Below are positions 9,930-50,246 of a stretch of 64,000 bases of DNA, piece by piece; position 1 is the first letter of the stretch; each line of letters starts with the position of its first letter. The DNA is from Pseudomonadota bacterium. GTDB lineage: Bacteria; Pseudomonadota; Alphaproteobacteria; Rickettsiales; UBA1997. The notes beneath the pieces were generated by a model. The model saw nothing but the letters and a program-made list of their open reading frames with translations, searched no databases and was not told the origin of the DNA. The translations under genes were made by a program, and so were the position numbers. The stretch covers positions 7,595 through 71,594 of the forward strand of contig JAGWWH010000004.1 in assembly GCA_018970485.1 (NCBI GenBank). The letters run 5' to 3'.

Positions 9930-12308
9930 TTAACCGAAAAAACCACGGCGTTTTTTTGGAGCACCACCACCATCACGGTCATCGCGATCTCCGCCACTTC
10001 TGCGGTCACCACGATCATCGCGATCACGTCCGCCACCTCTACGGTCGCCGCCGCGGTCATCGCGATCACGACCACCTCTACGATCACCGCCACGGTCATC
10101 GCGATCGCGTCCACCACCTCTACGATCACCACCGCGGTCATCACGACCGCCAGATTCTCTTTCGTCGATCATTTGCGGCTTATTTGGAAGGCGCTCAGTA
10201 ATATCTTCGCCAGTTGTTTGATCAACACAGCGGAAGCTCAATTTTGGACGACCCTTTTTGTCAAAACCAATTACTTTAACTTTTATTACATCGCCCTCGT
10301 TAATGATATCTTCAACGAAATCGACACGATATTCAGCCAGTTCAGAGATATGAACGAATCCGTCGCGATTATTAGAAATGCTAACGAAAGCGCCGGCATC
10401 AATTACTTTTACGACTGGACCTTCGTAGATATCTCCTATCTCTGGTTCGAAAGTAATTTCGTTAATCATCGCGACCGCTTTTTTAACAGCTTCGCTGTTG
10501 CTCGAGGAAATTTTTACCACTCCATTGTCATCAACATCGACCGCGGCTCCAGAAACTGCGCAAATTTCTTTTATTACCGCACCTCGCGCACCAATAACTT
10601 CACGAATTTTCTTTTGAGGAATATTCATTATTTCAACGCGCGGAACATTTCCATTTAGTTCAGCCCTGGACGAGGACATAACTGCACACATTTTATCAAG
10701 AATGTGAAGTCTTCCAACATTAGCTTGCTCAAGAGCTTTTTGCATAATCTCAACGGTAATGCCGTTGATTTTGATATCCATTTGAAGCGATGTAATGCCT
10801 TCTGCAGTTCCAGCTACCTTGAAGTCCATATCACCAAGATGATCTTCATCACCCATGATGTCTGAAAGAATAACATAATCGTTACCTTCTTTGATCAATC
10901 CCATCGCGATTCCAGAGACTGGAGCCTTGATCGGAACGCCGGCATCCATCAAAGCAAGTGAAGCTCCACAAACCGAAGCCATTGATGACGAACCATTTGA
11001 TTCAGTGATTTCAGAGACAACCCGTGCTGCGTAACTAAATTGTTCAGGGGTTGGGAATACTGGGTTCAGAGCTCTCCAAGCCAATTTTCCGTGGCCGATT
11101 TCACGACGTCCTGGAGATTTCAATTGTCCAGTTTCACCTACTGAATAAGGAGGAAAGTTGTAGTGAAGCATGAAAGATTCTTCAGACATGCCTGGATCAA
11201 GATTCTCGATCAATTGTTTATCTTTTCCAGTCGCACCAAGGGTTGCTGTAACAAGAGCTTGTGTTTCACCGCGAGTAAAAAGAGCTGATCCGTGAACTTG
11301 TGGAAGTATTCCGGTTTCGATTTCTATACGACGAACATCAGTTGTTGAGCGACCGTCAATTCTTTTGCCGGTTTTTAACACATCATTGCGCACGATTTCT
11401 TGCGCGAGAGTTTTGAAAATTGATTTAACTTTATTCGCATCAACAGATTCGCTAACGAATTTATTTTTTACGTCACTGAAAATTTCATCTAAATCAGAAG
11501 AGCGAGCTTGTTTCTCTTGTTTCTTGTAAGCAGCGATTAGGCGATCACCTATAAAGATAGAGATTTCATTTTTAACTGAAGAATGATCAGCTTTTGCCAC
11601 TTCAATTTTCTTCTTACCAGCATCCTCTTTTAGGGACTTGATCATCGTGATCACTGGCTGGAAAGATTGGTGAGCGAATGTGATCGCTTCCAACATCTTG
11701 GATTCAGAAAGCTCTTTTGCTTCTGACTCAATCATCAAAACAGATGATTCTGTACCAGCAACAACTAGATCTAAGCTACTAGTCTTAAGCTCTTCAATAC
11801 TTGGATTAATAACGAACTCACCATTTATAATCGCGACCCTAGCTCCAGCAATAGGCTCAAGGAATGGGGCTTCGGAAATCTCTAAAGCAGCAGATGCACC
11901 AATCAATGCAGCAATGTCTGGGGTGCAAGTTGGGTCGTAAGAAAGAACGGTGCAAACAACGTTCACTTCATTGTAAAAATTAGAAGGAAAGAGTGGACGA
12001 ATCGGACGATCAATCAAACGAGAAGTTAGGGTTGCCGCATCGGATGGTTTAGTTTCGCGCTTAAAGAAGCCTCCTGGAATTTTCCCAGCAGCGTAAGATT
12101 TTTCGAGATAGTTTACAGTAAGAGGAAAAAAATCAGCTCCATCCATCGCTTTACTAGCAACAGTTACGGCGCAAAGAACTGTGGTATTGCCATATTTTAC
12201 AACAACAGAGCCGCTAGCTTGACGAGCAATCTTTCCCGTCTCTAAAGAGAGGGGTTTTCCGTTCCAATCAATTTGTTTTTTGATCACATTAAACATAGTT
12301 TCGGACAT
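9930..12308 (-). CDS. pnp: Polyribonucleotide nucleotidyltransferase (PNPase) with an atypical C-terminal R/G/D-rich repeat tail
   Basis: 792 aa. Two RNase PH domains, KH and S1 domains (…GFVHISELA…VIGFDKKGRPKLSFR), then about 90 extra residues ending in the GGRDDRGGDRRGGG... repeats. Confidence 0.97.
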   Translation of the reverse strand: MSETMFNVIKKQIDWNGKPLSLETGKIARQASGSVVVKYGNTTVLCAVTVASKAMDGADFFPLTVNYLEKSYAAGKIPGGFFKRETKPSDAATLTSRLIDRPIRPLFPSNFYNEVNVVCTVLSYDPTCTPDIAALIGASAALEISEAPFLEPIAGARVAIINGEFVINPSIEELKTSSLDLVVAGTESSVLMIESEAKELSESKMLEAITFAHQSFQPVITMIKSLKEDAGKKKIEVAKADHSSVKNEISIFIGDRLIAAYKKQEKQARSSDLDEIFSDVKNKFVSESVDANKVKSIFKTLAQEIVRNDVLKTGKRIDGRSTTDVRRIEIETGILPQVHGSALFTRGETQALVTATLGATGKDKQLIENLDPGMSEESFMLHYNFPPYSVGETGQLKSPGRREIGHGKLAWRALNPVFPTPEQFSYAARVVSEITESNGSSSMASVCGASLALMDAGVPIKAPVSGIAMGLIKEGNDYVILSDIMGDEDHLGDMDFKVAGTAEGITSLQMDIKINGITVEIMQKALEQANVGRLHILDKMCAVMSSSRAELNGNVPRVEIMNIPQKKIREVIGARGAVIKEICAVSGAAVDVDDNGVVKISSSNSEAVKKAVAMINEITFEPEIGDIYEGPVVKVIDAGAFVSISNNRDGFVHISELAEYRVDFVEDIINEGDVIKVKVIGFDKKGRPKLSFRCVDQTTGEDITERLPNKPQMIDERESGGRDDRGGDRRGGGRDRDDRGGDRRGGRDRDDRGGDRRGGGRDRDDRGDRRSGGDRDDRDGGGAPKKRRGFFG
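9963..10151. repeat. Coding tandem repeat of about 4.5 units of 39-42 bp, encoding (R)DRDDRGGDRRGG(G) within the pnp 3' end
   Basis: Protein-level repeats are GRDDRGGDRRGGG / RDRDDRGGDRRGG / RDRDDRGGDRRGGG / RDRDDRGDRRSGG / DRDDRDGGG. The periodicity is also visible in the DNA (…cgcgatcacg[t/a]cc[g/a]ccacctctacg[g/a]tc…). Confidence 0.85.
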
Positions 12309-19847: not shown

Positions 19848-20465
19848 TTACACAAATTCCCTTTTCATCCTCTCGTTCAGAGCAGCATAACTTCCTCCAA
19901 CCTCACTCAAAATCGACTTAATCAAACTCTTCGAAGGCCTGATTTGTCTGCGCGCAAAACGATTCATTAGCAACGCTTCTAGCGCCTCCTTGCTTGGATT
20001 TTCAATCGTCACAGTCGGGATATTTTTAAGGCGGGAATTGAGATCTTTGAGTTTGAATTTCTTGTCAGAATTTCTCGCGCTTAACAGCAAAAAAGCACCG
20101 GCTTCACGTAGTGAGTTAAAGAGATGTAGCAAAGCTTCTTCGTCAGCAATTTGGTGAAAATCTTCAAGAATGTAAAAGCGATTAGGCTGAAAAAAATCGG
20201 CGAGATTTTTGGTAAAAATTTCTTCTTTAATTAAAAACTCCGCGGCGAATTTTTCGGCAAAAATGTGAAGTAGATGAGTCTTCCCTGAAGCCTCTTCACC
20301 CTTTAAAATCAACGATTGCAGATGATCAGAAGAAGAATTTTTCTGCGTAAAAAATTTCTGTAAAAAATTTCGTGCCGCAGAATTTTCGGCCAGCGCAAGA
20401 AAATCTTCCTCTAGGTAGGAATTAACTTCGTTTTGGAATTGGAGATTAAGTTGTTTTGTCATCAT
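19848..20465 (-). CDS. hdaA: DnaA regulatory inactivator Hda-like (HdaA)
   Basis: 205 aa. A short AAA-like protein with the P-loop GEEASGKTHLLH and the DnaA-box-VII-like DFHQIADEEALLHLFN. Confidence 0.75.
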   Translation of the reverse strand: MMTKQLNLQFQNEVNSYLEEDFLALAENSAARNFLQKFFTQKNSSSDHLQSLILKGEEASGKTHLLHIFAEKFAAEFLIKEEIFTKNLADFFQPNRFYILEDFHQIADEEALLHLFNSLREAGAFLLLSARNSDKKFKLKDLNSRLKNIPTVTIENPSKEALEALLMNRFARRQIRPSKSLIKSILSEVGGSYAALNERMKREFV

Positions 20466-20472
20466 TCATTAA

Positions 20473-20533
20473 CCCTTCGACAAGCTCAGGGTGACCACCG
20501 AGGAGTGTCATGCTGAGCTTGTCGAAGCATGAC
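20473..20533. repeat. Nested-palindrome repeat element, copy A (intergenic, between gatC and hdaA)
   Basis: Sequence: CCCTTCGACAAGCTCAGGGTGAC-CACCGAGGAGT-GTCATGCTGAGCTTGTCGAAGCATGAC. The 15-bp cores CTTCGACAAGCTCAG and CTGAGCTTGTCGAAG are perfect reverse complements. It is near-identical to 42719-42773. Confidence 0.9.
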
Positions 20534-20538
20534 TCGAA

Positions 20539-20829
20539 TTACTCGAGCACTTTTGGAACTGCGAAATAACCGTATTTCGCGTTTTTGGCATTTTTCAAAA
20601 CATCGTTTGCAATATCGCCGTCATTGATCTCATCGGCATTTAAACGTAGCGACATGTCGTGAACGTTAGTCAAAGGCTCAACATTTTCAGTGTTAACTTC
20701 ATTTAGTTTTTCAACCCAAGCGATGATGCTTCCAACCTGCGCAGCTGTTGTTTCGCTGCCCTCTTTGGGAATTTCAATTCTTGCTAAACGAGAAATTTTT
20801 TTAAAATCTTCCTTACTAACAACTGACAT
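20539..20829 (-). CDS. gatC: Asp/Glu-tRNA amidotransferase subunit C
   Basis: MSVVSKEDFKKISRLARIEIPKE... is a typical GatC N-terminus, so I chose the start at 20829. The ORF-track start at 20931 would overlap ruvX. The true start is only 16 bp from the divergent ruvX start. Confidence 0.88.
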   Translation of the reverse strand: MSVVSKEDFKKISRLARIEIPKEGSETTAAQVGSIIAWVEKLNEVNTENVEPLTNVHDMSLRLNADEINDGDIANDVLKNAKNAKYGYFAVPKVLE

Positions 20830-20845
20830 TTTTGAAAAATTTTGA

Positions 20846-21253
20846 ATGAAAAAAGGTCGCCTGGTGGCACTCGACATTGGCACGAAAAGAATTGGCATCG
20901 CAACTTGCGATGCAACTAGATTAATCACCACTCCACGAATGATTTTAAATCGCCAAAATCACTTGGATGACTTCGCCAAAATTAAGAATTTCGTCGAAGA
21001 AAATGAAGCAGTTGGAATTGTAATTGGGCTACCAATTGGCTCGCCAGAAATGATGTCTGTGATCAAAAGTTTTGCTAAAAAACTCGATGAATTTTTGGAG
21101 AAAAAAATTCCAATTACTCTTTTTGATGAAAGATTAAGCAGCTTCGAAGCCAAGGAAATCCACGCTTCGCCACTGTCGCGCAAAAAAAATAAATTCGTCG
21201 ATGACATTGCTGCCAGCATAATTTTAGAGCACTTTTTGCAAAGCCAAGGCTAG
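20846..21253 (+). CDS. ruvX: Holliday junction resolvase-like / pre-16S rRNA nuclease YqgF
   Basis: 135 aa. Contains [17 protein letters not shown] and [14 protein letters not shown]. Confidence 0.9.
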
Positions 21254-41122: not shown

Positions 41123-41683
41123 GTGCAAAATCTTATCGAGATCAGCGCAGAAAAATTCGACGTAATTTTCGATTTGCGCTACGCTTCAAAAAACAATGTT
41201 TGTGGTCATAAACTCTATTCTCGACCTTTCGCTTACTTGCACGAAGCCGCTATCGAACCACTTCAAAAGGCGATCAAGTCCGCGAAAAATTTAGGACTAA
41301 AGCTAAAAATTTTTGACACCTTTCGTCCGATCGAAGTGCAAAAATACATGTTCGATAAATTTCCCGGCGATTTTGTTTCTAATCCTGAAGATGGCACAAT
41401 CCCGCATTGTCGTGGTGTGGCGATTGATTTAACCCTGACCGATCTTTCCGGAAATGAGCTAGATATGGGCACAGATTTCGACGAATTTTCCGATCTTGCT
41501 TTTCACAATTGTGAAAAAATTTCTGTCGAAGCTCAACGTAATCGCTTACTCTTTCTTGGCTTGATGACTTCTGCTGGTTTTGATTTCTACTCGAAAGAAT
41601 GGTGGCATTACCAACTTTTTAAACCGCGTGAATATCAAGTTGTGAAGTCTTCACCGGAACTAATTCATGACTCGTTGCGCTAA
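41123..41683 (+). CDS. ddpX: D-alanyl-D-alanine dipeptidase (M15D, VanX/DdpX family)
   Basis: Contains FDLRYASKNNV, SNPEDGTIPHCRGVAIDLTL and EWWHYQL. GTG start. The 3' end overlaps the convergent recF by 65 nt. Confidence 0.8.
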   Translation: MQNLIEISAEKFDVIFDLRYASKNNVCGHKLYSRPFAYLHEAAIEPLQKAIKSAKNLGLKLKIFDTFRPIEVQKYMFDKFPGDFVSNPEDGTIPHCRGVAIDLTLTDLSGNELDMGTDFDEFSDLAFHNCEKISVEAQRNRLLFLGLMTSAGFDFYSKEWWHYQLFKPREYQVVKSSPELIHDSLR

Positions 41684-42707
41684 AAAATGCCTGCAAATTC
41701 GCTGCAGAAATTTCCTCAAATAAATTCTTTTTTCGCTCTTCGTCCAAATGCGAAACCACTTCGTCAAAAATCAGAATTGTCGGCTGATTTTTGTAAGAAG
41801 ATGAAATCCGCGCGCGCGCTAGAGTAATGCCAAGCATAATCGCTTTTTGTTCACCCGTAGAAGACAGTTTTGCCGAAATATTTTTTGCCAAAAAAATCGC
41901 ATCAAAATCAGCGCGATGCACACCAAATTCAGTTTTAAAACTAACCAAATCACGCTCGCGATTTTCTTTCATTTTAATTTTGTAAAGCTCTTCAAGTTGC
42001 GCTGCGCTTTGCTGCATAATCATCTCTTCAACTTCACCAAGCGCGCAAAGTTTTGTTTGCGGAAAATTTGAAGAAAAAGACGAAATAGCTTTATTAAAAA
42101 AATCTATCGCCTCGATCCGCGCCGCCGCGATTGAAACGCCAAGCTCAACGATTTTATTTTCCACCGCATTCAGCCATTTATCGTCGCGATGTTTTTGCAA
42201 AATCAACAACCTTTCTCGCAGTAATTTCTGGTAATTGTTAATGCGTCCGGAGTGCTCGTGATCTAGATCAGAGACTATTTTATCCATGTAATCACGACGC
42301 TCACTTTTGCCGGAAATAAAAAGCTGCTCAAGCTGCGGAGTAAGAAAAACAAAATTAATTAGATGGCTTCGAAGATCGCTTTGGCGCTTAGAACTAACTG
42401 GCTCGCCGTTGATTAGTAAAATCTTTTTTTTCTGAGTTGCATCAAATGAAACCGCAATTTTATCGATGAATTCGTGATTAGAAATTTCGGCGTAAATCGT
42501 GAAATTTTTCTCTTCAATTTTAACCATTTCATCAAAATCACTTCCACGTAAAGAAGCGCTGCGACCAAGCAAAGTAAGGCTTTCTAGGATATTAGTTTTT
42601 CCCGCACCATTTGCGCCAACAAGTAAAACTGATGGAGAAGAAAGTTCGATTCGACGCGAGGAAAAATTACGAAAATTTGTGAGAAGAAGTTTTTTGATCT
42701 GGATCAT
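41619..42707 (-). CDS. recF: DNA replication and repair protein RecF
   Basis: Contains MIQIKKLLLTNFRNF, GANGAGKTNILE, LSSTGEQKA and LIFDEV. I chose the start at 42707. The ORF-track start at 42734 (MSKGDLTSL) is read out of the palindromic repeat. Confidence 0.9.
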   Translation of the reverse strand: MIQIKKLLLTNFRNFSSRRIELSSPSVLLVGANGAGKTNILESLTLLGRSASLRGSDFDEMVKIEEKNFTIYAEISNHEFIDKIAVSFDATQKKKILLINGEPVSSKRQSDLRSHLINFVFLTPQLEQLFISGKSERRDYMDKIVSDLDHEHSGRINNYQKLLRERLLILQKHRDDKWLNAVENKIVELGVSIAAARIEAIDFFNKAISSFSSNFPQTKLCALGEVEEMIMQQSAAQLEELYKIKMKENRERDLVSFKTEFGVHRADFDAIFLAKNISAKLSSTGEQKAIMLGITLARARISSSYKNQPTILIFDEVVSHLDEERKKNLFEEISAANLQAFFSATSHELVPVKTSQLDIHAV

Positions 42708-42718
42708 GAGAGAGGTAA

Positions 42719-42773
42719 GGTCACCCTTCGACAAGCTCAGGGTGACTAGTCATGCTGAGCTTGTCGAAGCATG
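42719..42773. repeat. Nested-palindrome repeat element, copy B (intergenic, between dnaN and recF)
   Basis: Sequence: GGTCACCCTTCGACAAGCTCAGGGTGAC-TA-GTCATGCTGAGCTTGTCGAAGCATGG. The arms are mutual inverted repeats, and each arm also has its own 7-bp terminal inverted repeat (GTCACCC/GGGTGAC and GTCATGC/GCATG). Confidence 0.9.
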
Positions 42774-42783
42774 GATCTCAGAA

Positions 42784-43884
42784 CTAAATTCTAACCGGCA
42801 TGATGACAAACACCGCGCTCATATTTTTTGCTTCAATTAAGGCGGGAGAAGCTCCGTCTCTGAAGCGCATTAATAGTTCGTCATTATCGATTTGGCCGAT
42901 GATGTCTAAAAGATAACGTGAGTTGAAACCAGTTTCGATGCGCTCTCCGGTGTAGTTTGCGTCCATCTCTTCGTAAGCAAAAGATCCGTCATTTGTGTTA
43001 ACTTGCAGACTTAATTTTCCGTTCTCCAAAATCATCTTAACCAAGCGATGCTTGTCTGTAGCGACAGTTGAAACACGGTCGACGCAATCGAAAAAATTCT
43101 TTTTATTAATCACCGCAACATGCGAATTATTTTTCGGCAGAACTTTGTCGTAATCAGGAAATTCACCGTCGATTAACTTAGAAATGATTGTCGTTTGATC
43201 GGCGATAACTTTGATTTTCACGCGCGAAATCGCGAAGCGAACATTCTTTGCTGAGTCGATAATTTTACGAATTTCTGCGACAGATTTTTTCGGCAAAATC
43301 ACACCGAAATGATTTTTTACTTCAAAATCATTGAAGGCGAGAGCGAGTCTGTGGCCATCAGTTGCAACAGTACGAAGACCCTGTGTACCAGCGTGCAAGT
43401 AAAGTCCATTTAGATAATAACGAGTTTCATCGCTAGAAATTGCAAAGCGCGTTTTGTCAATCATGCGCGCTAAATCTTCTGATTTAATTTGGACTTCTTC
43501 GCCCAGCTCACCTTCGGATAAATTCGGAAATTCAGAAGCGTCGATGCAAGGTAGGCTGTATTTCGATTTACCTGATTTGATCTGCAAAATCGTCGCACTT
43601 TCTTGCGTGATCATGATCGCACCTTCCGGAATTTTACGCACAATATCAAAAAACATTTGCGCCGGAACTGTAGTCACGCCGCTCTTTTTGATATCAGCTT
43701 CGAAAGTAGCGGTAACAAGAATATCCATGTCAGTTGCTGACAAAATTATCTTGTCGCCATCTTTTGTTTTCTCTGCTTCGATTTTGATATTTTGAAGAAC
43801 AGGAATTGTATTTTTTCTCTCCACCGCGCCACTCACGTTTGAGATAGCTTTTAGTAGCGACTGTTTTGCTGCTTCGAACTGCAT
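42784..43884 (-). CDS. dnaN: DNA polymerase III beta sliding clamp
   Basis: MQFEAAKQSLLKAISNVSGAVERKNTIPVLQNIKIEA is a typical DnaN N-terminus, and the C-terminus reads VFVIMPVRI. I chose the start at 43884. The ORF-track start at 43998 would overlap ftsH. Confidence 0.93.
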   Translation of the reverse strand: MQFEAAKQSLLKAISNVSGAVERKNTIPVLQNIKIEAEKTKDGDKIILSATDMDILVTATFEADIKKSGVTTVPAQMFFDIVRKIPEGAIMITQESATILQIKSGKSKYSLPCIDASEFPNLSEGELGEEVQIKSEDLARMIDKTRFAISSDETRYYLNGLYLHAGTQGLRTVATDGHRLALAFNDFEVKNHFGVILPKKSVAEIRKIIDSAKNVRFAISRVKIKVIADQTTIISKLIDGEFPDYDKVLPKNNSHVAVINKKNFFDCVDRVSTVATDKHRLVKMILENGKLSLQVNTNDGSFAYEEMDANYTGERIETGFNSRYLLDIIGQIDNDELLMRFRDGASPALIEAKNMSAVFVIMPVRI

Positions 43885-43909
43885 TTGTGTTTGTGTTTTT
43901 TGTTTAAGA

Positions 43910-45778
43910 TTAGCTGACTTTTGGAATGAACCCACCGCTAATCGAGCTAGCTGCTGAGCTATTCTGGACCGATGGTTTTCTAATTTCTTTGCCAGCAAGT
44001 AAATCTTTAATTTCCTCTCCGCTCAAAGTTTCGTATTCAAGCAAAGCTCTGGCCAATTTTTCTAAATCGTCTTTTTTCTCGTTAAGAATTTTTTTAGCTT
44101 CGGCCAAGCCTTCATTGATGATACGCTTAACTTCTTCATCGATGATTTTTCCAGTTTCGTCAGAGTAAGGCTTATTAGCCGCGTAAAATCTCGAACCTTC
44201 ATCTTCGCCGTAATCAACAGCTCCAACTTTGTCGCTCAAACCCCATCTAGTAACCATGCTGCGCGCCATCGCGGTTGCTTGTTGGATATCGGAAGAAGCG
44301 CCGGTTGTGACTTGTTCGTAACCGAAAATTAATTCCTCAGCCGCGCGCCCGCCGAAAGCGACGATGAGATCATCTTTGAGTTTGGCGCGAGTAACCGAAA
44401 AGCGATCATTTTCCGGCAAGCGCATAACCAGTCCCAGAGCACGACCACGCGGGATGATTGTTGCTTTGTGAATTGGATCAGAATTTGGGCAATTAAGTGC
44501 AGTAATGGCGTGACCAGCTTCGTGATAGGCGGTGAGCTCTTTTTCTGATTTTTGCATCACCATCGATTTGCGCTCTGCGCCCATCATAATCTTATCTTTG
44601 GCATATTCGAAGTTACTCATTGTCACCATTTTCTGACTGAAACGCGCTGCGGTTAAAGCGGCTTCGTTAACTAGATTGGCGAGATCTGCGCCGGCAAAAC
44701 CTGGGGTTCCGCGGGCTAAAGTTTTTACGTCAATATCAGCGGCGGCGACAATCTTTTTGATGTGAACATTAAGAATTTGTTCGCGGCCAACGATGTCAGG
44801 ATTTGGCACAGTAACTTGACGATCAAAACGTCCCGGACGAAGCAAGGCGCGATCCAAAACATCGGGGCGATTTGTTGCAGCAATGATTACCACACCTTCA
44901 TTGTCAGAAAATCCGTCCATCTCAACCAACATCTGGTTAAGAGTTTGCTCACGCTCATCATTTCCCCCACCAACACCAGAGCCGCGATGGCGCCCAACCG
45001 CATCAATTTCGTCGATAAAAACAATACAAGGAGCTGATTTTTTCGCTTGCTCAAACATGTCACGAACTCTGCTCGCACCGACACCGACAAACATTTCAAC
45101 GAAATCAGAACCAGAAATTGAGAAAAATGGAACTCCTGCCTCACCAGCAATAGCGCGGGCCAACAAGGTTTTACCGGTTCCTGGGGAACCAATTAATAAA
45201 CAACCGCGCGGAATTTTTGCTCCGACATCAACGTATTTTTTAGCGTCTTTAAGGAAGTCAACAATTTCGCTGAGCTCCTGCTTTGCCTCGTCAATCCCCG
45301 CAACATCGCCAAAGGTAACTTTTCCTTTGTTTTCCTGTAAAAGTTTAGCGCGAGATTTTCCGAATCCAAAAGCGCCACCACGCCCACCTGCTCCTGAAGC
45401 GCCACGCGCAAAATAAATCCACAGACCAACCATTACGATGAGAGGAAGCCAGCCGAGAAATCCTGCGACAATTTTGTCAGACTTACTAACCAAAGGCACG
45501 GCGTTGATCTCCACTCCCTTCTCCTGCAACTTCGAAACGAGGTCAGGATATTCCGGAAGGTAAGTGTAAAACTGCGAATTATCTTTGAGTTTGCCGTTCA
45601 AATCACTGCCTTTGATATCAACAGAAACTACTTCTCCCGCATCGACCTTCTTCATGAAATCACTAAAGACCATTTTGCTTCCCGATGCACTGTTAGGGTT
45701 GTTAATCAGGCTAGATAAAAGCATCACTCCAGCAAAAATAATTAGCCAAGTTAGGAAGTTTTTTCCGGAATTTTTCAT
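43910..45778 (-). CDS. ftsH: ATP-dependent zinc metalloprotease FtsH
   Basis: Two TM helices, the AAA motifs [11 protein letters not shown] and IVFIDEIDA, and the HEAGH zinc site. Confidence 0.97.
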
Positions 45779-45910: not shown

Positions 45911-46705
45911 TTAACCGATCAATCTTTTCATCAATTCTTCGCTGGGCTCAGGCTTTTTACCAAACCAAGCTTCAAACCCTACCAAAGCTTGCTCGACAAG
46001 CATGCCGATTCCGGTAACGATTTTATTTCCGCGCATCTCGGCAGATTTAAGCAGCTCGGTTTTGAGTGGTTTGTAAACGATATCGTAAACGATCGCAGAT
46101 TTCTTTAAGGCCGAAAGATCAAGCTCTAAAGGCTCTTGGCCAATCATTCCAAGCGAAGTTGTATTCACCAACAGATCACATTCAGCGAGTTTTTGTTCGA
46201 AATTTTTTCTGCCCAAAAATTCCACATCAGCAAAATTTTTTTCCGTACGGTTAGTTAAGTAAATTTTTTTTACTCCTGATTTGAGAAGTCCGTAAAACAC
46301 CGCCCGAGCAGCTCCACCAGCACCAATAACAAAAATATTTTTTTCAAAAAGATCAAAATTTGGCTGAGAATTTTTAAGATTTTGTAAGAAGCCAAAAACA
46401 TCAGAGTTAAGTCCACGCAACTTTTTTTCAGGAGTAATAACAACAGTGTTCACTGCGCCAGTTAGTTGAGCAGTTTCATCAAGTTCGTCACAAATTTCAA
46501 AAATTTTTTCTTTGTGCGGAATAGTAACGTTAAAACCTGCAAAACCTTGATTTACAAGATTCCAAACCACTTCGCTTAGCTCATTTTTTTGCACAAGAAT
46601 CGCTTCGTAACTTCCTGCAATTTTAAGTTTTTGTAGAAAAAAATTATGAATTTTTGGTGAGAGTGAATGCGAAATTGGATCTCCGATTACAGCAGACTTG
46701 ATCAC
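45911..46705 (-). CDS. aroE: Shikimate dehydrogenase
   Basis: Contains VIGDPISHSLSPKIHN, GFNVTIPHK, GAGGAARA and NTTSLGM. Confidence 0.9.
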   Translation of the reverse strand: MIKSAVIGDPISHSLSPKIHNFFLQKLKIAGSYEAILVQKNELSEVVWNLVNQGFAGFNVTIPHKEKIFEICDELDETAQLTGAVNTVVITPEKKLRGLNSDVFGFLQNLKNSQPNFDLFEKNIFVIGAGGAARAVFYGLLKSGVKKIYLTNRTEKNFADVEFLGRKNFEQKLAECDLLVNTTSLGMIGQEPLELDLSALKKSAIVYDIVYKPLKTELLKSAEMRGNKIVTGIGMLVEQALVGFEAWFGKKPEPSEELMKRLIG

Positions 46706-48534
46706 TCTTTTTCTCCTTCAATCGAACCTTCTTTTTTAGTATTTTCGGCATCTTGTTTGTTCGATTTATTCTTAGAGTAATCAGGCATGTAAGGCTCTTG
46801 TTTCGGAATTTTAGTTTTTGGCAAGAGGCGCGAAGTGAACATTTTGTCTTTGAAATAAAATATTTTTTTCGCGCGAATTGGTGGCTGAGATTCAATCAAA
46901 ATAATTTCTTCTTCGCGCGGTAATTGGATAACCTCTTGTGGTAACAACAAAGCGCGCTGCACATCAGAAAGATGTAGAGAACGCGCACCAGGATTGAGAT
47001 CGAGATATTTTGGCTTGTTGTAAGAAATTTGTGTCGCGGTTTTATTGCCAAGAAGTTGTGAGATCAGATTTGCCGTCTCCATGTTGTTGGCAGCGAAAGT
47101 TACGCGATAAGTTGAGTTGGAAAGGAATGAGTTCATTCCACTTTCTTCGTAAATTCCTTTGAGCTGCTCGGTATCTTGAATGATTAGAAACAAACGAACG
47201 CGATATCCGCGGAAGTAAGCAATACCTGCCTGAAACTGCTCCATTTTGCCTAGAGTTGGAAACTCATCCATCAGCATCAATACGCCAAATTTCTCATTGG
47301 GACGCGGCATATGTGCGGTGAAAAATGCTGCAGCTTGTTGATAAAACATATTCATCAAGGGCTTGAGGCGCGTGATGTTATCTGGTGTTAAACCAACGTA
47401 ACAAGTGTGCGGAGAGAGTTTGAATTCATGCAAATTAAAATCAGAAGTGGCAGTTGTGGTATCAATCAAAGGGTTGGCCCATAATTCGAGAGATGAGTTG
47501 GCTGTAGATGTCACCGAGCCCCGCTCTTTATCAGGCTTCTGCAAATATGAAGCGATATTCATGTAAGAAACTGGGTGAATTTTTTTGCCCATCGTGTCGA
47601 GAACCACAGCAAGATTATAAACCACGTCATCATTTCTAAGGGTTCGCACAACCTCGCCGAGAGTTGCCGGCTTATCTTCCGCGGCAACGAGATAAAGCAT
47701 AACTCCTGTCAATAAAGCGCGCGCTTCGTTCTGCCAAAATTCCTGTTCGGGCAAAAGAAAATTACAGAGCTTCTGCACGTCATCGACCATTTTTCCCGGC
47801 TTGTTACTGATCCAATCCATCGGATTGTAGCAATGTGAAATTCCGTCAGGATCTGCCGGATTCCACAAAAATACTTTTTGTTTCAGATGCTTGCGACGCC
47901 AGCCAGAAGTGAGTTCGTAGTTTTCTAACTTGATATCGTGAACGATAACTGACTCAGCCCAAAACAACAAATTCGGAATTACAAAACCCACACCTTTACC
48001 AGAACCCGTAGGTGCAAAAAGCAAAATATGTTGAAAGCCTTCAGCAATCAGAAGTTTATGTTTGTAGGTGCCAAGCAAAACTCCGGTTTTTGAGCGCAAA
48101 CCCATTTTCTTAACTTCCTTTGAAGTTGCCCAATGAGAATCGCCGTGGATTGATTCTTTTTTCTTGAAAGGACGCCAATCCATTATTGGTGCGCGGAATT
48201 TCCAGCCGCCTGCTAGCAAAATTAAGTAAGGTATAACTGTCGTTATCCAAAGTTTCCAAACGAAGCCGTTATAGCTTGAGATATTGAGCTTAGAGGAGTT
48301 GGCAAAATAGAATTTCCAGTAAGTGGCAAGAGTTTTGTAAATATAAATAAACTGCTTGGGCAGTGATAAATCTAGGTAGCTTTTGATGATGTCCCACTTC
48401 CCTGTAACAGCAAAAATGACGAGAGTTCCTGTGATGTAAAAGCAACTAGCAAGAACTAGGGCGAGCAAAAAACTAATGATTACAAAATTGCGTAAACTTT
48501 GTACCGCTGGATTTTCGTCTGCTATTGATGCCAT
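46702..48534 (-). CDS. virD4: Type IV secretion system coupling protein VirD4/TraG family
   Basis: 610 aa. N-terminal TM helices, HGDSHWAT, Walker A FAPTGSGKGVGFVIPNLL and Walker B LMLMDEFPTLG. The start and stop overlap recN and aroE. Confidence 0.9.
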   Translation of the reverse strand: MASIADENPAVQSLRNFVIISFLLALVLASCFYITGTLVIFAVTGKWDIIKSYLDLSLPKQFIYIYKTLATYWKFYFANSSKLNISSYNGFVWKLWITTVIPYLILLAGGWKFRAPIMDWRPFKKKESIHGDSHWATSKEVKKMGLRSKTGVLLGTYKHKLLIAEGFQHILLFAPTGSGKGVGFVIPNLLFWAESVIVHDIKLENYELTSGWRRKHLKQKVFLWNPADPDGISHCYNPMDWISNKPGKMVDDVQKLCNFLLPEQEFWQNEARALLTGVMLYLVAAEDKPATLGEVVRTLRNDDVVYNLAVVLDTMGKKIHPVSYMNIASYLQKPDKERGSVTSTANSSLELWANPLIDTTTATSDFNLHEFKLSPHTCYVGLTPDNITRLKPLMNMFYQQAAAFFTAHMPRPNEKFGVLMLMDEFPTLGKMEQFQAGIAYFRGYRVRLFLIIQDTEQLKGIYEESGMNSFLSNSTYRVTFAANNMETANLISQLLGNKTATQISYNKPKYLDLNPGARSLHLSDVQRALLLPQEVIQLPREEEIILIESQPPIRAKKIFYFKDKMFTSRLLPKTKIPKQEPYMPDYSKNKSNKQDAENTKKEGSIEGEKE

Positions 48535-50246
48535 TAATTTTCGATTAAACTTTTTGCTGCTAAAACCGCTTCCACGCTGATTTCTTCGCCTGATAACATT
48601 CTTGCAATTTCTTGCTCACGATCTTTTTTGTCGAGCTTTTTAATTTCAGTTTTCGCTTTGTTTTCAGAAAAAACTTTACTGATTTTAAAATGAGTTTTTG
48701 CTTTTGCGGCAATTTGTGGTTGATGAGTAACTACTAGAATTTGCAATTTTTCCGACAGGGTCTTGAGACGCTTTCCAACCGCATCAGCTGTACTTCCACC
48801 AATTCCAGTATCTATTTCATCAAAAATCATTGTTGGCACTGATTTCACATCAAGCAGCGCAACTTTAAGCGCGAGCATGAAGCGAGAAAGCTCGCCACCA
48901 GAAGCGATTTTAGAAATGTCGTCGAAGCCGTTTTTATTCAGAGAGGCGGTGAAGCGAACGCGGTCGTAGCCAGCGGGAGAACATGCTTCGACAGGCTCAG
49001 CATGACCAAGATCGTCACCCTGACCCTTCGACAAGCTCACGGTTCGAAGGCTGTCGCGAGCAATATCTATTAAAAATTTTGTTTCACCCATCTTCAAAAA
49101 TTTCAGCTCTGCCTCAACTTTTTCTGACAAAATTTTTGCCGATTTTTTGCGACGCTCCGAAAGTTCGTCGGCAATTTTCTTGTAATCTTTATTTAGCTCC
49201 AAGCGTTGTTTCTCAAGCTCTCCGACGAACTCCTCTTCATTTGAAAGTAGTTTTAATTTTTCTTGTGCATCCAAAATTATTTGCGGCAAGGAATCGATTG
49301 GAACATTGAATTTTCTAGCAAGAGCGCGAATGAAAAAAAGCCTCTCTTCAATTTCATCAAGATTATTTTCATCAGCAGAAATTTTTCTAACTAAGGCTTC
49401 GATGCTTGAAATTGCTGAATCGAGCTCATCATTTTGTCGATCAATTTTTTCGCTTAAGCCATCAAAATCTTCGCCAAGATTTTGATTTCTGATTAAAATT
49501 TTCTGCGCCAAAAGCAGTTGCGAGTTCGCTTCAAGCAAGTGTGATTTTAGGTCGCTAGAAAAATTTAGAATTTTTTCTTTGCTGATTAAAAAATCTTTTT
49601 TGGCGATTAATTCATTTTCTTCATCTGCTTTTAGCTCAGCATTTTCTAGCTCTTGCACCACATGTTCGAGATAATCTTTCTCTCTTGCTGCTGCTTCTTT
49701 TTTTGCAGAAATATCAGAAATTTTTTCCTCAACGACGCGTAAATTTTCGTAAATTTTTTTGAGATTTTTTAGCAAATTTTCGTTGCCAGCAAATTCATCT
49801 AGAATCGCCAAATGAGCGCTTGGATTAAGGAGTCCGCGCTGATCGTGTTGCCCGTGAATTTCCACCAAAGTTTCCCCAACTTTTGCTAAAAGATTCACAC
49901 CAATTGCGTTATCATTAACGAAAATTTTATTGACTGAATTTTCATTAATAGTTCTACGAATCCTTAACAGGCTTGGATTCTCGCTATCTAACAGATCATT
50001 TTCTGTAAGAAATTTTTTACATATTTCGTTTTGCGAAATATCAAATTCTGCTGCGACTTGTGCTTTATTTTCATCGCCACCAATCAAACGAAAATTAGCG
50101 CGAAAACCAATAGCAAGACCAAGAGCATCAAGCAAAATCGACTTACCCGAACCGGTCTCGCCACTTAGAATACAAAGACCCGGCGCAAGCTCGATTTCTG
50201 CTTTGTCGATTAGAACAATATTGTGAATTGAAAGAGAGGTAAGCAT
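48534..50246 (-). CDS. recN: DNA repair protein RecN, carrying a 23-codon repeat-derived insert
   Basis: Contains MLTSLSIHNIVLIDKAEIE, GETGSGKSILLDAL, a long coiled coil, the ABC signature ASGGELSRFMLALK and Walker B MIFDEIDTGIGG. Confidence 0.93.
   Translation of the reverse strand: MLTSLSIHNIVLIDKAEIELAPGLCILSGETGSGKSILLDALGLAIGFRANFRLIGGDENKAQVAAEFDISQNEICKKFLTENDLLDSENPSLLRIRRTINENSVNKIFVNDNAIGVNLLAKVGETLVEIHGQHDQRGLLNPSAHLAILDEFAGNENLLKNLKKIYENLRVVEEKISDISAKKEAAAREKDYLEHVVQELENAELKADEENELIAKKDFLISKEKILNFSSDLKSHLLEANSQLLLAQKILIRNQNLGEDFDGLSEKIDRQNDELDSAISSIEALVRKISADENNLDEIEERLFFIRALARKFNVPIDSLPQIILDAQEKLKLLSNEEEFVGELEKQRLELNKDYKKIADELSERRKKSAKILSEKVEAELKFLKMGETKFLIDIARDSLRTVSLSKGQGDDLGHAEPVEACSPAGYDRVRFTASLNKNGFDDISKIASGGELSRFMLALKVALLDVKSVPTMIFDEIDTGIGGSTADAVGKRLKTLSEKLQILVVTHQPQIAAKAKTHFKISKVFSENKAKTEIKKLDKKDREQEIARMLSGEEISVEAVLAAKSLIEN
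48982..49050. repeat. Nested-palindrome repeat element, copy C (rearranged, inverted orientation, in-frame inside recN)
   Basis: Sequence: CATGCTTCGACAGGCTCAGCATGAC-CAAGATC-GTCACCCTGA-CCCTTCGACAAGCTCACGG-TTCGAAGG. The first arm is the reverse complement of the right arm of copies A and B, with one mismatch. It is 69 bp, or 23 codons, translated as LRTVSLSKGQGDDLGHAEPVEA. Confidence 0.85.

What the first reader, a model, noticed from the sequence alone, without database searches (positions are those of the whole stretch)
42719..42773. GC-rich nested-palindrome repeat family: best-preserved copy, in the dnaN-recF spacer
The sequence is GGTCACCCTTCGACAAGCTCAGGGTGAC-TA-GTCATGCTGAGCTTGTCGAAGCATGG.
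- The two arms are inverted repeats of each other, with a 15-bp perfect core (CTTCGACAAGCTCAG / CTGAGCTTGTCGAAG).
- Each arm also carries its own 7-bp terminal inverted repeat (GTCACCC...GGGTGAC and GTCATGC...GCATG).
- The RNA or DNA could therefore fold as one long hairpin or as two tandem stem-loops.
- The element is markedly more GC-rich than its surroundings.
- It recurs at 20473-20533 and, rearranged, at 48982-49050, giving three copies in 64 kb.
- It creates a spurious N-terminal extension on recF (MSKGDLTSL) and a spurious plus-strand ORF (...SPFDKLRVTSHAELVEA...).

This looks like a REP/RPE/MITE-like dispersed element. I do not know whether this family has been described for this lineage.
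Basis: seen in the sequence. Interest (0 to 1): 0.6.

Follow-up and report, generated by a model that had tools for sequence, protein, structure and literature searches.

The report
Tiny REP-like hairpin repeat family
A 27-base hairpin-forming repeat sits at three places in this window (twice between genes, once in frame inside recN); it is an ordinary kind of small REP-like palindrome, unusual only in keeping the same 15-base core across many bacterial phyla and in having no known enzyme that moves it.

Summary
The window holds six modules or module fragments at three sites: 20472-20533, 42720-42773 and 48982-49050.

**The unit.** It is a 27-nt hairpin, (T/C)GTC-A-NN-CTGAGCYTGTCGAAG-NN-T. The core is fixed and the stem pairs covary.

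**The three sites.**
- Sites 1 and 2 are inverted doublets. They fill the gatC-hda-like and dnaN-recF spacers.
- Site 3 is a 57-nt in-frame insertion in recN. Related genomes carry empty, partial or decayed versions of it.

**Distribution.**
- The module occurs in about 16 phylum-level groups.
- It occurs on plasmids of cultured Hymenobacter, Novosphingobium, Sinorhizobium and Comamonas.
- It is absent from 5,426 E. coli genomes.
- It matches no Rfam family at threshold.
- Its sequence strings matched no relevant paper in the library.

**Classification.** Its architecture is a tag, an 8-"pair" stem, a 5-nt loop and dimers. It lies near 3' gene ends and sometimes inside repair genes, and no transposase is linked to it. 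This fits the CGTC/TGTC-tagged REP superfamily of Di Nocera et al. 2013, which includes Neisseria dRS3 and Rickettsia RPE-4 and RPE-6.

**Verdict.** It is a new member of a known kind: a non-autonomous selfish hairpin. How it moves is unknown. Any effect on dnaN-recF expression is inferred.

The parts
42720..42746 (-). Site 2, module A. On the minus strand it reads GTCACCCTGAGCTTGTCGAAGGGTGAC (stem variant CC/GG). It is a complete 27-nt module.
42747..42748 (.). Site 2 spacer, TA, between the two tag ends. With the tags facing inwards this is a tail-to-tail (TT) doublet.
   Evidence: Dimer nomenclature from PMC3733652.
42749..42773 (+). Site 2, module B: GTCATGCTGAGCTTGTCGAAGCATG (stem variant TG/CA). 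The 3' complement of the GTC tag is missing.
20472..20495 (-). Site 1, module A (CC/GG stem). It is identical over 24 nt to 42723-46. The complement of the GTC tag is missing.
   Evidence: (family D4).
20496..20506 (.). Site 1 spacer, CACCGAGGAGT (11 nt).
20507..20533 (+). Site 1, module B: GTCATGCTGAGCTTGTCGAAGCATGAC (TG/CA stem), preceded by T, which gives a TGTC tag.
48990..49046 (-). The 57-nt (19-codon) in-frame insertion in recN, measured against the empty allele of L122. It encodes ...RTVSLSKGQGDDLGHAEPV...
48982..49006 (-). Site 3 module with the TG/CA stem and a C-variant core (GTCATGCTGAGCCTGTCGAAGCATG on the minus strand). Its last 8 nt overlap sequence already present in the empty allele.
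49014..49050 (-). Site 3, rearranged part. It consists of a half-module (TCAGGGTGAC on the minus strand), a module-like core ACCGTGAGCTTGTCGAAGGG, and CCTTCGA. Compared with the decayed doublet in L120, it looks like a CC/GG module whose loop received about 15 extra nt (a nested insertion or an inversion).
   Evidence: The nested-insertion reading is an inference.
41619..42707 (-). recF with its likely true start (ATGATCCAG..., 362 aa). The ORF extension back to 42734 is an artefact of the repeat.
42784..43998 (-). The dnaN ORF. Its stop codon is at 42784-42786, 10 nt upstream of the doublet. The true start is probably internal to this ORF, because the relatives' proteins are 370 aa.
48534..50246 (-). 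recN (570 aa), the host of the site 3 insertion. It is identical to MBU6140303.1.
19848..20465 (-). Hda-like ORF. Its Bac_DnaA match falls just below the Pfam cut-off. It starts 7 nt downstream of the site 1 doublet.
20539..20931 (-). The gatC ORF. Its stop codon is at 20539-20541, 5 nt upstream of the site 1 doublet.

Best explanation
The element is a non-autonomous, selfish REP-type repeat.

**The unit**
- The unit is a 27-nt module with three parts:
  - an unpaired 5' tag, (T/C)GTC;
  - a stem whose outer pairs are free to covary;
  - a fixed inner part, CU-GA-G / C-GA-AG, closing a 5-nt loop, CYUGU.
- I infer two sheared G.A pairs in the inner part.
- In this genome the modules occur as tail-to-tail heterodimers: a CC/GG-stem module plus a TG/CA-stem module.

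**How I think it spreads (inferred)**
- It is probably copied as a folded single strand of DNA by a trans-acting enzyme encoded elsewhere.
- That enzyme has not been identified.
- New copies land preferentially next to or inside existing copies.
- They survive only where they do little harm: short spacers at 3' gene ends and permissive protein loops such as the one in RecN.

**Likely side effects here (inferred, not shown)**
- Once transcribed, the 25-bp hairpin lies 5-10 nt after the gatC and dnaN stop codons.
- There it probably acts as a barrier to 3' exonucleases and to ribosomes, or as an RNase III target. This would partly uncouple the downstream genes, hda-like and recF.
- The recN copy simply adds 19 residues to a variable loop.
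For: **Shown**
- The repeat is real and non-random.
- The two free stem positions are Watson-Crick complementary in 124 of 142 instances, using 11 different dinucleotide pairs. The covariation score is 0.282 against 0.059 in shuffles, with 0 of 500 shuffles as high. Core positions 1 and 15 also covary.
- Flanks beyond the unit are not conserved, apart from T (62%) or C (20%) at position -1.
- In a scan constrained only by the loop, the 5' GTCA is present without its 3' complement, so it behaves as a tag.
- Syntenic relatives differ in presence or absence:
  - The dnaN-recF spacer is 4 nt in L122 and 77 nt here.
  - recN alleles run from empty (551 aa) through a decayed single-module remnant (557 aa) and a decayed doublet (564 aa) to this window's 570 aa.
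- The modules at sites 1 and 2 are identical to each other, although the relatives' remnants at the recN site and the module-like fragments in the dnaN-recF spacer are decayed.
- No intact modules occur in about 90 kb of syntenic DNA from relatives.
- The window encodes only housekeeping genes.
- No gene family recurs next to modules across 119 loci.
- There is no orientation bias relative to neighbouring genes (24 against 19). Modules favour convergent (33) and tandem (43) spacers over divergent ones (16).
- The module is found in about 16 phylum-level groups and on plasmids of cultured bacteria.
- The same heterodimer occurs in metagenome contigs of 31-73% GC.

**From the literature**
- The architecture and biology match the CGTC/TGTC-tagged REPs (PMC3733652).
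Against: - No mobilising enzyme was found.
  - There is no Y1/RAYT homologue in the window or in 2.16 Mb of module-bearing loci, apart from one fragment in a relative.
  - Di Nocera et al. likewise found no transposase linked to CGTC repeats.
  - This test has little power, because a trans-acting gene need not lie near its repeats.
- Transposition was never observed. Presence/absence differences between lineages about 85% identical in RecN could also come from deletions.
- An identical core across phyla is unusual for REPs, which normally diverge between lineages (PMC12306157, section heading seen). It could instead point to a conserved host function.
- The tandem G.A pairs are inferred from conservation only. 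Nearest-neighbour folding leaves an 11-nt loop.
- The CCA tail and the A-T second pair reported for CGTC families are not clearly present.
Confidence: 0.6

Rival explanations
1. The element is primarily a functional RNA element. The hairpin would be kept because, in transcripts, it does one of the following: stabilises the upstream mRNA, stalls terminating ribosomes, is cut by RNase III, or acts as an sRNA. Dispersal would be secondary.
For: - The folds are very stable.
- Both intergenic doublets begin 5-10 nt after a stop codon in co-directional gene pairs. REPs within 15 nt of an ORF end have been linked to translational control (PMC12306157 abstract).
- Some G.U-type pairs are tolerated in the stems.
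- Module doublets in other genomes give sub-threshold matches to Rfam RF02901, an Aggregatibacter sRNA. Its consensus contains GCUGAgCUUGcCGAAGCAUc...gAUGgUUCGgCAAGcUCAgC, so at least one relative is transcribed.
- Modules favour 3' gene ends.
Against: - There is no sense/antisense bias relative to neighbouring genes (24 against 19).
- There is no U tract, and the terminator scan does not flag the element.
- Copies lie inside coding sequence.
- The spacer is empty in a close relative with the same gene order, so the element is dispensable there.
- G.T-type mismatches show no significant strand preference: 9 on one strand against 4 on the other, my own classification of the non-Watson-Crick rows.
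Confidence: 0.2
2. The element is a double-stranded DNA binding site for a conserved host protein, such as a nucleoid-associated protein, gyrase or a replication/repair factor. This would explain the fixed 15-nt core across phyla.
For: - The core is identical in many phyla.
- All three sites in the window touch replication or repair genes: hda-like, dnaN/recF and recN.
- In other genomes, half-modules GTCANNCTGAGC are reiterated like iterons.
Against: - Covariation in the stem argues for recognition of a folded single strand rather than a duplex.
- The core is not palindromic.
- The element is absent from relatives with the same genes and from all E. coli genomes searched, so no universal factor requires it.
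Confidence: 0.07
3. The element is a MITE: an internally deleted insertion sequence moved by a DDE transposase acting on its terminal inverted repeats.
For: - The inverted doublet superficially resembles terminal inverted repeats.
- In some metagenome contigs and in L018, modules bound or sit inside repeats of 125-300 nt.
Against: - The unit is 27 nt, and single modules are common.
- Flanks are not conserved, and no target-site duplication is seen at the two sites that can be compared with an empty allele.
- No transposase gene lies between or beside modules.
Confidence: 0.03
4. There is no mobility at all. On this view the palindromes arise and are perfected locally by template switching (quasi-palindrome correction), and the similarity between sites is convergent.
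For: - Stem complementarity could be maintained by a mutational process as well as by selection.
- The outer stems at the recN site partly coincide with sequence already in the empty allele: GAAACATG against GAAGCATG.
Against: A non-palindromic 15-nt core identical at unrelated sites, in genomes of 31-73% GC, cannot arise repeatedly by local correction.
Confidence: 0.02

Closest known systems
CGTC/TGTC-tagged REP superfamily (Di Nocera et al. 2013, PMC3733652). It includes Neisseria dRS3 (CGTC-1) and Rickettsia RPE-6 and RPE-4 (CGTC-1 and CGTC-4).
   Same: - It has a 5' tag, (C/T)GTC, followed by a stem that starts with an A-T pair.
- The stem is 8-9 pairs and the loop 4-5 nt, if the G.A/A.G/G-C positions are counted as stem.
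- The loop CYTGT resembles a loop I back-translated from a listed CGTC-3 peptide (VIAGLDPAI, giving CTTGA). This back-translation is my own and is ambiguous.
- It forms dimers that can fold as one long hairpin.
- It lies between convergent or co-directional genes.
- Some copies are in frame inside DNA-repair genes.
- The taxonomic spread includes Alphaproteobacteria, Bacteroidetes, Chlorobi-like groups and Spirochaetes.
- No transposase gene is linked to it.
- The Sulfurovum CGTC-2 peptide RHSELVSGS parallels the HPELVEG reading frame of our module.
   Different: - The inner stem carries two invariant non-Watson-Crick positions (G.A and A.G).
- The 15-nt core is fixed across phyla.
- The second stem pair is not consistently A-T.
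- No CCA tail is seen.
- The doublets here are tail-to-tail, which that paper calls rare for CGTC repeats.
- This sequence was not found in that paper's text or supplements. I could not see its Figure 2.
Classical REP/BIME and REPIN elements with RAYT (TnpA-REP) transposases, in E. coli and Pseudomonas
   Same: - They are short extragenic hairpins with a 5' tetranucleotide.
- They form inverted doublets that fold as one long hairpin (REPIN).
- They occur in clusters and lie at 3' gene ends.
- They can affect mRNA stability and translation.
   Different: - Their tag is GT[AG]G and their sequences are lineage-specific.
- A RAYT gene flanked by REPs is normally present. None was found here.
- This family is absent from E. 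coli.
Rickettsia palindromic elements (RPE), in the sense of in-frame insertions in protein genes
   Same: - The palindromic insert is in frame in recN, with no stop codon, in a length-variable loop.
- The host appears to be an alphaproteobacterium. This rests on source labels of relatives and on my reading of the gene content.
   Different: - RPE-1 and similar elements are 100-150 bp and AT-rich.
- Here the insert is built from GC-rich 27-nt modules. I did not compare it with RPE consensus sequences.
Cyanobacterial small dispersed repeats (SDR; Elhai et al. 2008, cited from my own knowledge and not checked here)
   Same: They are very small (21-27 nt) mobile hairpin repeats that insert into one another and into genes. 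No transposase is known for them.
   Different: The sequences are different and the family is restricted to cyanobacteria. I made no direct comparison.
Rfam RF02901, AaHKsRNA41 (an Aggregatibacter sRNA)
   Same: Its consensus contains a head-to-head pair of closely related modules, with core CUGAGCUUGCCGAAG.
   Different: - Matches reach only 25-45 bits against a gathering score of 97, and they come from other genomes.
- The window's doublets do not match at E <= 10.
- The family was defined as one sRNA locus, not as a dispersed repeat.

Membership tests
CGTC/TGTC-tagged REP superfamily (PMC3733652) | A terminal tetranucleotide tag, CGTC (or the variants TGTC or CCTC), at one end of the stem-loop. 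| tested here: met
   - GTC is fixed, and position -1 is T in 87 and C in 28 of 140 instances.
- In the loop-only scan, every hit that carries the 5' GTCA lacks the 3' TGAC.
CGTC/TGTC-tagged REP superfamily (PMC3733652) | A stem of 8-9 bp and a loop of 4-5 nt. | tested here: inconclusive
   - The feature is met only if G3.A13, A4.G12 and G5-C11 of the core count as stem. These positions are 89-98% conserved in the 61 non-exact copies.
- Folding programs leave an 11-nt loop.
CGTC/TGTC-tagged REP superfamily (PMC3733652) | The first and second stem pairs are A-T. | tested here: inconclusive
   - The first pair is always A-T, but the search pattern fixed it.
- The 5' base of the second pair is T in 78 of 140 instances, C in 45, G in 15 and A in 2.
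CGTC/TGTC-tagged REP superfamily (PMC3733652) | A short unpaired tail, consensus CCA, at the other end. | tested here: not met
   There is no CCA after the 3' stem in the window or in the unconstrained viral-contig hits.
CGTC/TGTC-tagged REP superfamily (PMC3733652) | The elements form dimers and are mostly intergenic between convergent or co-directional genes. Some are intragenic, often in DNA-repair genes. | tested here: met
   - Doublets are seen.
- Spacer types are convergent 33, tandem 43 and divergent 16.
- One copy is an in-frame insert in recN.
- The doublets here are tail-to-tail rather than the usual head-to-head.
CGTC/TGTC-tagged REP superfamily (PMC3733652) | No linked tyrosine transposase or other transposase. 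| tested here: met
   This is a low-power test, limited to 2.16 Mb around the modules.
REP/REPIN-RAYT systems | A 5' GT[AG]G guide tetranucleotide. | tested here: not met
   The tag is (T/C)GTC.
REP/REPIN-RAYT systems | A cognate RAYT gene in the genome, flanked by the repeats (a REPtron). | tested here: inconclusive
   - None is present in the window or in the loci.
- The full source genome was not available.
MITE | Terminal inverted repeats of a parent IS, plus a target-site duplication. | tested here: not met
Rickettsia RPE families | Sequence similarity to an RPE consensus. | not tested
   - No RPE consensus sequences were available in the tools.
- Only the behaviour (in-frame insertion) is shared.
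Rfam RF02901, AaHKsRNA41 | A score at or above the gathering threshold of 97 bits. | tested here: not met
   - The window gives no match.
- Other loci reach 25-45 bits.
Intrinsic terminator | A GC-rich hairpin followed by a T tract. | tested here: not met
   The sequence after the hairpin is CCTTACCTCTCTC.

The most novel reading that the evidence does not exclude
The fixed core CUGAGCYUGUCGAAG, with its inferred tandem G.A pairs, defines a pan-bacterial family of ultra-small mobile hairpins. They would be moved by a shared machinery that is not RAYT and has not been identified, possibly a widespread replication or repair enzyme acting on folded single-stranded DNA. This would explain three things: the identical core in about 16 phylum-level groups, the stepwise build-up and nesting of modules at single sites, and the recurrent association with replication and repair genes. 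Identifying that machinery would answer how CGTC-type REPs, dRS3 and small RPEs move.
Probability: 0.25. Interest if true: 0.75.

Novelty: new member of a known kind. Interest (0 to 1): 0.45.

Why it matters
**For annotation**
- The repeat creates a false recF start and false ORFs.
- It adds 19 residues to RecN. Such artefacts will recur wherever the family is present.

**For biology**
- Tagged REPs of the CGTC type have no known mobilising enzyme.
- This member has an invariant 15-nt core, covarying stems, a stepwise series of recN alleles in related genomes, and presence in cultured Hymenobacter, Novosphingobium and Sinorhizobium.
- That makes it a convenient handle for finding the enzyme. 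One route is phylogenetic profiling of copy number against gene content. Another is biochemistry on a 27-nt substrate.

Tried and rejected
**Searches and tests that led nowhere**
- Rfam, at gathering and at permissive thresholds on the window, gave only chance miRNA-like hits.
- Full-text searches for the DNA strings and for the peptides the repeat encodes returned only unrelated primer or peptide hits.
- The Aggregatibacter sRNA paper does not mention repeats.
- Clustering ORFs around 119 loci to find a linked enzyme gave only common housekeeping families.
- tblastn with IS200 TnpA, E. coli RAYT and nine RAYT/TIRYT sequences from PMC3733652 gave nothing in the window. The only hit was a fragment at L124:8995-9222.
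- The exact-protein lookup for the window's RecN found no contig on record, so the rest of the source genome could not be read.
- A generic scan of the window for other tag-stem-loop repeats stayed at chance level.
- There were no matches in E. coli genomes or GenBank phages.

**Ideas I considered and rejected**
- A hammerhead-like core: G8 is not present.
- Origin from a tRNA T-arm or D-arm: only loose resemblance.
- A CRISPR repeat: there is no regular spacing.
- A dif/Xer site: the core is not palindromic.
- An intrinsic terminator: there is no T tract.

Full report
**1. The observation**

The quoted sequence is at 42719-42773. The claimed relatives are at 20472-20533 and 48982-49050.

- The 15-mer core, or its complement, occurs six times with at most one mismatch. 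With up to 3 mismatches there are 12 hits, against 1.79 +/- 1.37 expected, and 0 of 100 shuffles reach 12.
- The repeat finder recovers the family (D4, I22 and I23).
- The elements are 55-57% GC in a setting of 39-40% GC.
- The doublet folds into one long hairpin:
  - as RNA, -37.1 kcal/mol, z = -7.1;
  - as DNA, -20.1 kcal/mol, z = -6.6.
- Each module alone also forms an 8-bp stem.

**2. Anatomy**

The unit is not the 55-nt pair. It is a 27-nt module, GTCA-NN-CT-GAGCYTGTCGA-AG-NN-TGAC.

- Sites 1 and 2 each hold two modules in inverted orientation. One has a CC/GG stem and the other a TG/CA stem. The spacers are 11 nt and 2 nt.
- The modules at the two sites are identical to each other.
- All neighbouring genes are on the minus strand.
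- Site 1 fills the gap between the gatC stop codon and the start of an Hda-like ORF.
- Site 2 lies between the dnaN stop codon and recF.
- The true recF start is the conserved ATGATCCAG. The 9-codon extension that begins inside the repeat is an artefact.
- The gene upstream of dnaN is ftsH.
- Site 3 lies inside recN.

**3. Comparison with relatives**

RecN of the window is identical to MBU6140303.1, labelled "MAG: Proteobacteria bacterium". I fetched syntenic loci from relatives whose RecN is 69-87% identical.

*The dnaN-recF spacer*
- It is 4 nt in L122 and 77 nt here.
- L120 and L124 carry short, decayed, module-like fragments.

*The recN site*
- L122 (551 aa) is empty: GACGGTCTT|GAAACATGTTCC.
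- The window carries a 57-nt in-frame insert, 48990-49046.
- L249 (557 aa) has a decayed single module.
- L120 (564 aa) has a decayed CC/GG + TG/CA doublet.
- The window (570 aa) has about 15 further nt inside the loop of the CC/GG module. I read this as a nested insertion or a rearrangement.
- L245 and L246 carry module-derived sequence with other stems (TC/GA and CT/AG) at the same loop.
- L247 carries an unrelated 45-nt palindrome there, while its close relative L250 is empty.

This RecN loop is therefore a recurrent, permissive landing site. About 90 kb of relatives' DNA holds no intact module. The intact, mutually identical copies in the window point to recent activity or homogenisation in this lineage.

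**4. Distribution**

By record title they come from about 16 phylum-level groups:
- Bacteroidota, Ignavibacteriota, Calditrichota and Eremiobacterota;
- Armatimonadota, Nitrospinota, Nitrospirota and Acidobacteriota;
- Chloroflexota, Peribacteria, Zixibacteria and Spirochaetota;
- Desulfobacterota, Dependentiae and Binatia;
- Alpha-, Beta- and Gammaproteobacteria.

Most of these are MAGs, so some assignments may be wrong.

*Cultured bacteria.* Genomes of cultured Hymenobacter and Joostella strains and complete plasmids of Hymenobacter, Novosphingobium, Sinorhizobium, Comamonas and Sulfuricella confirm at least two phyla. The plasmid copies are unannotated.

*Other collections.*
- The core also occurs in IMG/VR viral contigs.
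- There is no match in 5,426 E. coli genomes or 50,697 GenBank phage records.
- The exact CC/GG-spacer-TG/CA heterodimer occurs in 34 metagenome stretches of 31-73% GC. In some of them it forms the core of 125-180-nt composite repeats.

**5. Structure**

- In 142 instances, the two stem positions left free by the search pattern are complementary in 124, using 11 different dinucleotide pairs.
- On distinct rows the covariation score is 0.282, against 0.059 +/- 0.016 in shuffles (0 of 500 as high). Shifted registers collapse to 25-45% pairing.
- Flanks beyond the unit are random, except for T or C at position -1.
- With only the core imposed, three things emerge:
  - the 2-3 bases on each side still pair;
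  - the 5' flank falls into sub-families TGTCA, CCGTTCG and CCGCTCA;
  - the 5' GTC often has no 3' partner, so it is a tag and not part of the stem.
- In 61 non-exact copies:
  - core positions 1 and 15 covary (C-G, G-C and T-A);
  - G3, A4, G12 and A13 are nearly invariant;
  - G5 and C11 are conserved;
  - positions 6-8 vary.
- I infer an 8-"pair" stem containing two sheared G.A pairs and a 5-nt loop, CYUGU. This can form only on the tag-first strand.
- Folding programs do not predict this structure, so it remains an inference.

**6. Context and linked genes**

- Across the loci, modules lie in convergent (33) and tandem (43) spacers more often than in divergent ones (16).
- Few are truly intragenic.
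- There is no sense/antisense bias: 24 against 19.
- No protein family recurs next to modules.
- The window holds only housekeeping genes.
- No Y1/RAYT homologue was found, apart from a fragment in the relative L124.
- The doublets are not terminator-like.

**7. What is known**

*Databases and text searches.*
- The window matches no Rfam family.
- Doublets in other genomes give sub-threshold hits to RF02901, an Aggregatibacter sRNA whose consensus contains a related module pair.
- Searches for the sequence strings and for the encoded peptides found no relevant paper.

*Di Nocera et al. 2013 (PMC3733652).* They describe a CGTC-tagged REP superfamily with these properties:
- The tag is often TGTC.
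- Stems are 8-9 bp and loops 4-5 nt.
- Dimers can fold as one hairpin.
- The elements are found mainly in Alphaproteobacteria, and also in Chlorobi, Bacteroidetes, Spirochaetes and Thermotogae.
- The superfamily includes Neisseria dRS3 and Rickettsia RPE-4 and RPE-6.
- Intragenic copies are often in DNA synthesis and repair genes.
- No transposase is associated.

A Sulfurovum CGTC-2 peptide, RHSELVSGS, parallels our HPELVEG reading frame.

Our module fits on tag, size, dimers, location and the lack of a transposase. It does not fit on the CCA tail or on the A-T second pair. I could not see their Figure 2, so I cannot exclude that this family is already listed there.

*Other literature.*
- Quentin et al. 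2018 (PMC6006769) report Y1 HuH subclasses with "atypical" hairpins, in Bacteroidetes (subclass 2.6) and Acidobacteria (class 3). These are candidates worth testing.
- REP motifs are generally reported to show low similarity across taxa (PMC12306157). That makes the fixed core here notable.

**8. Verdict**

The MITE label is not.
- It is best filed as a new, or at least unlabelled, member of the tagged-REP kind.
- The most likely mechanism is selfish, trans-mobilised spread as a folded single strand. Copies accumulate next to or inside earlier copies and survive by passive filtering for harmless sites. I put this at about 0.6.
- Effects on gatC/hda-like and dnaN/recF expression are plausible but untested.
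- The open and more interesting question is what moves these elements and why the core is the same in so many phyla.

Noticed in passing
window 9968-10146 (minus strand, the 3' end of the PNPase gene 9930-12308): A 39-42-nt tandem repeat (about 4.5 copies) encodes an arginine/glycine/aspartate-rich C-terminal tail on polynucleotide phosphorylase: ...GGRDDRGGDRRGGGRDRDDRGGDRRGG... The protein is 792 aa.
   Followed up: partly
L247:3772-5499 compared with L250:10001-11683 (recN of two close relatives): The RecN loop that holds the module insert here carries an unrelated 45-nt imperfect palindrome in L247 (CGAAAAATGACAGAGGCCGCAGGCCGAGTAATTTTCCCGAAGGAA). It is empty in L250. The loop is therefore a general landing site for palindromic inserts.
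   Followed up: partly
window sites 20472-20533, 42720-42773 and 48982-49050: All three repeat sites touch replication or repair genes: hda-like (with ruvX and a Pif1-like helicase nearby), dnaN/recF and recN. Di Nocera et al. also noted REPs inside DNA synthesis and repair genes. This is a post-hoc observation with no explanation.
   Followed up: no
L014:6980-7100, L029:6480-7030 and L039:1440-1620: Next to full modules there are arrays of truncated modules (GTCANNCTGAGC or GTCANNCTGAGCCTGTCG) repeated every 17-25 nt. The junction CCGCATT (CCGGATT in one copy) is shared between an acidobacterial MAG and an eremiobacterial MAG.
   Followed up: partly
L251, L252, L255, L258, L268, L270 and L280; also L261, L269, L275, L278 and L279: In low-GC (31-36%) metagenome contigs, the same CC/GG + TG/CA heterodimer has a conserved spacer (AGTCGTAGTACGTAT or TATGTAATTAG) and conserved flanks. 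Together these form composite repeats of 125-180 nt.
   Followed up: partly
L018:230-575 and L018:2390-2745: A roughly 350-nt composite unit is duplicated on both sides of a lipoprotein-like gene. It consists of a module, then about 180 nt of conserved non-coding sequence, then two modules about 100 nt apart. No Rfam family matches the inner part.
   Followed up: partly
L124:8995-9222 (minus strand): A relative's locus has an unannotated fragment similar to a Y1 (RAYT/TIRYT-type) transposase: 35% identity over 78 aa to Geobacter GSU2396, E = 2e-4. It lies just upstream of recN. No counterpart exists in the window.
   Followed up: no
window 46702-48534 (minus strand): A VirD4/TraG-type coupling protein gene overlaps the recN stop codon. 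It is conserved in that position in all the relatives examined, and no other type IV secretion genes are nearby.
   Followed up: no
window 19848-20465 (minus strand): The ORF downstream of site 1 reaches only 22.5 bits on Bac_DnaA, against a cut-off of 23. The Hda-like assignment is therefore tentative.
   Followed up: partly
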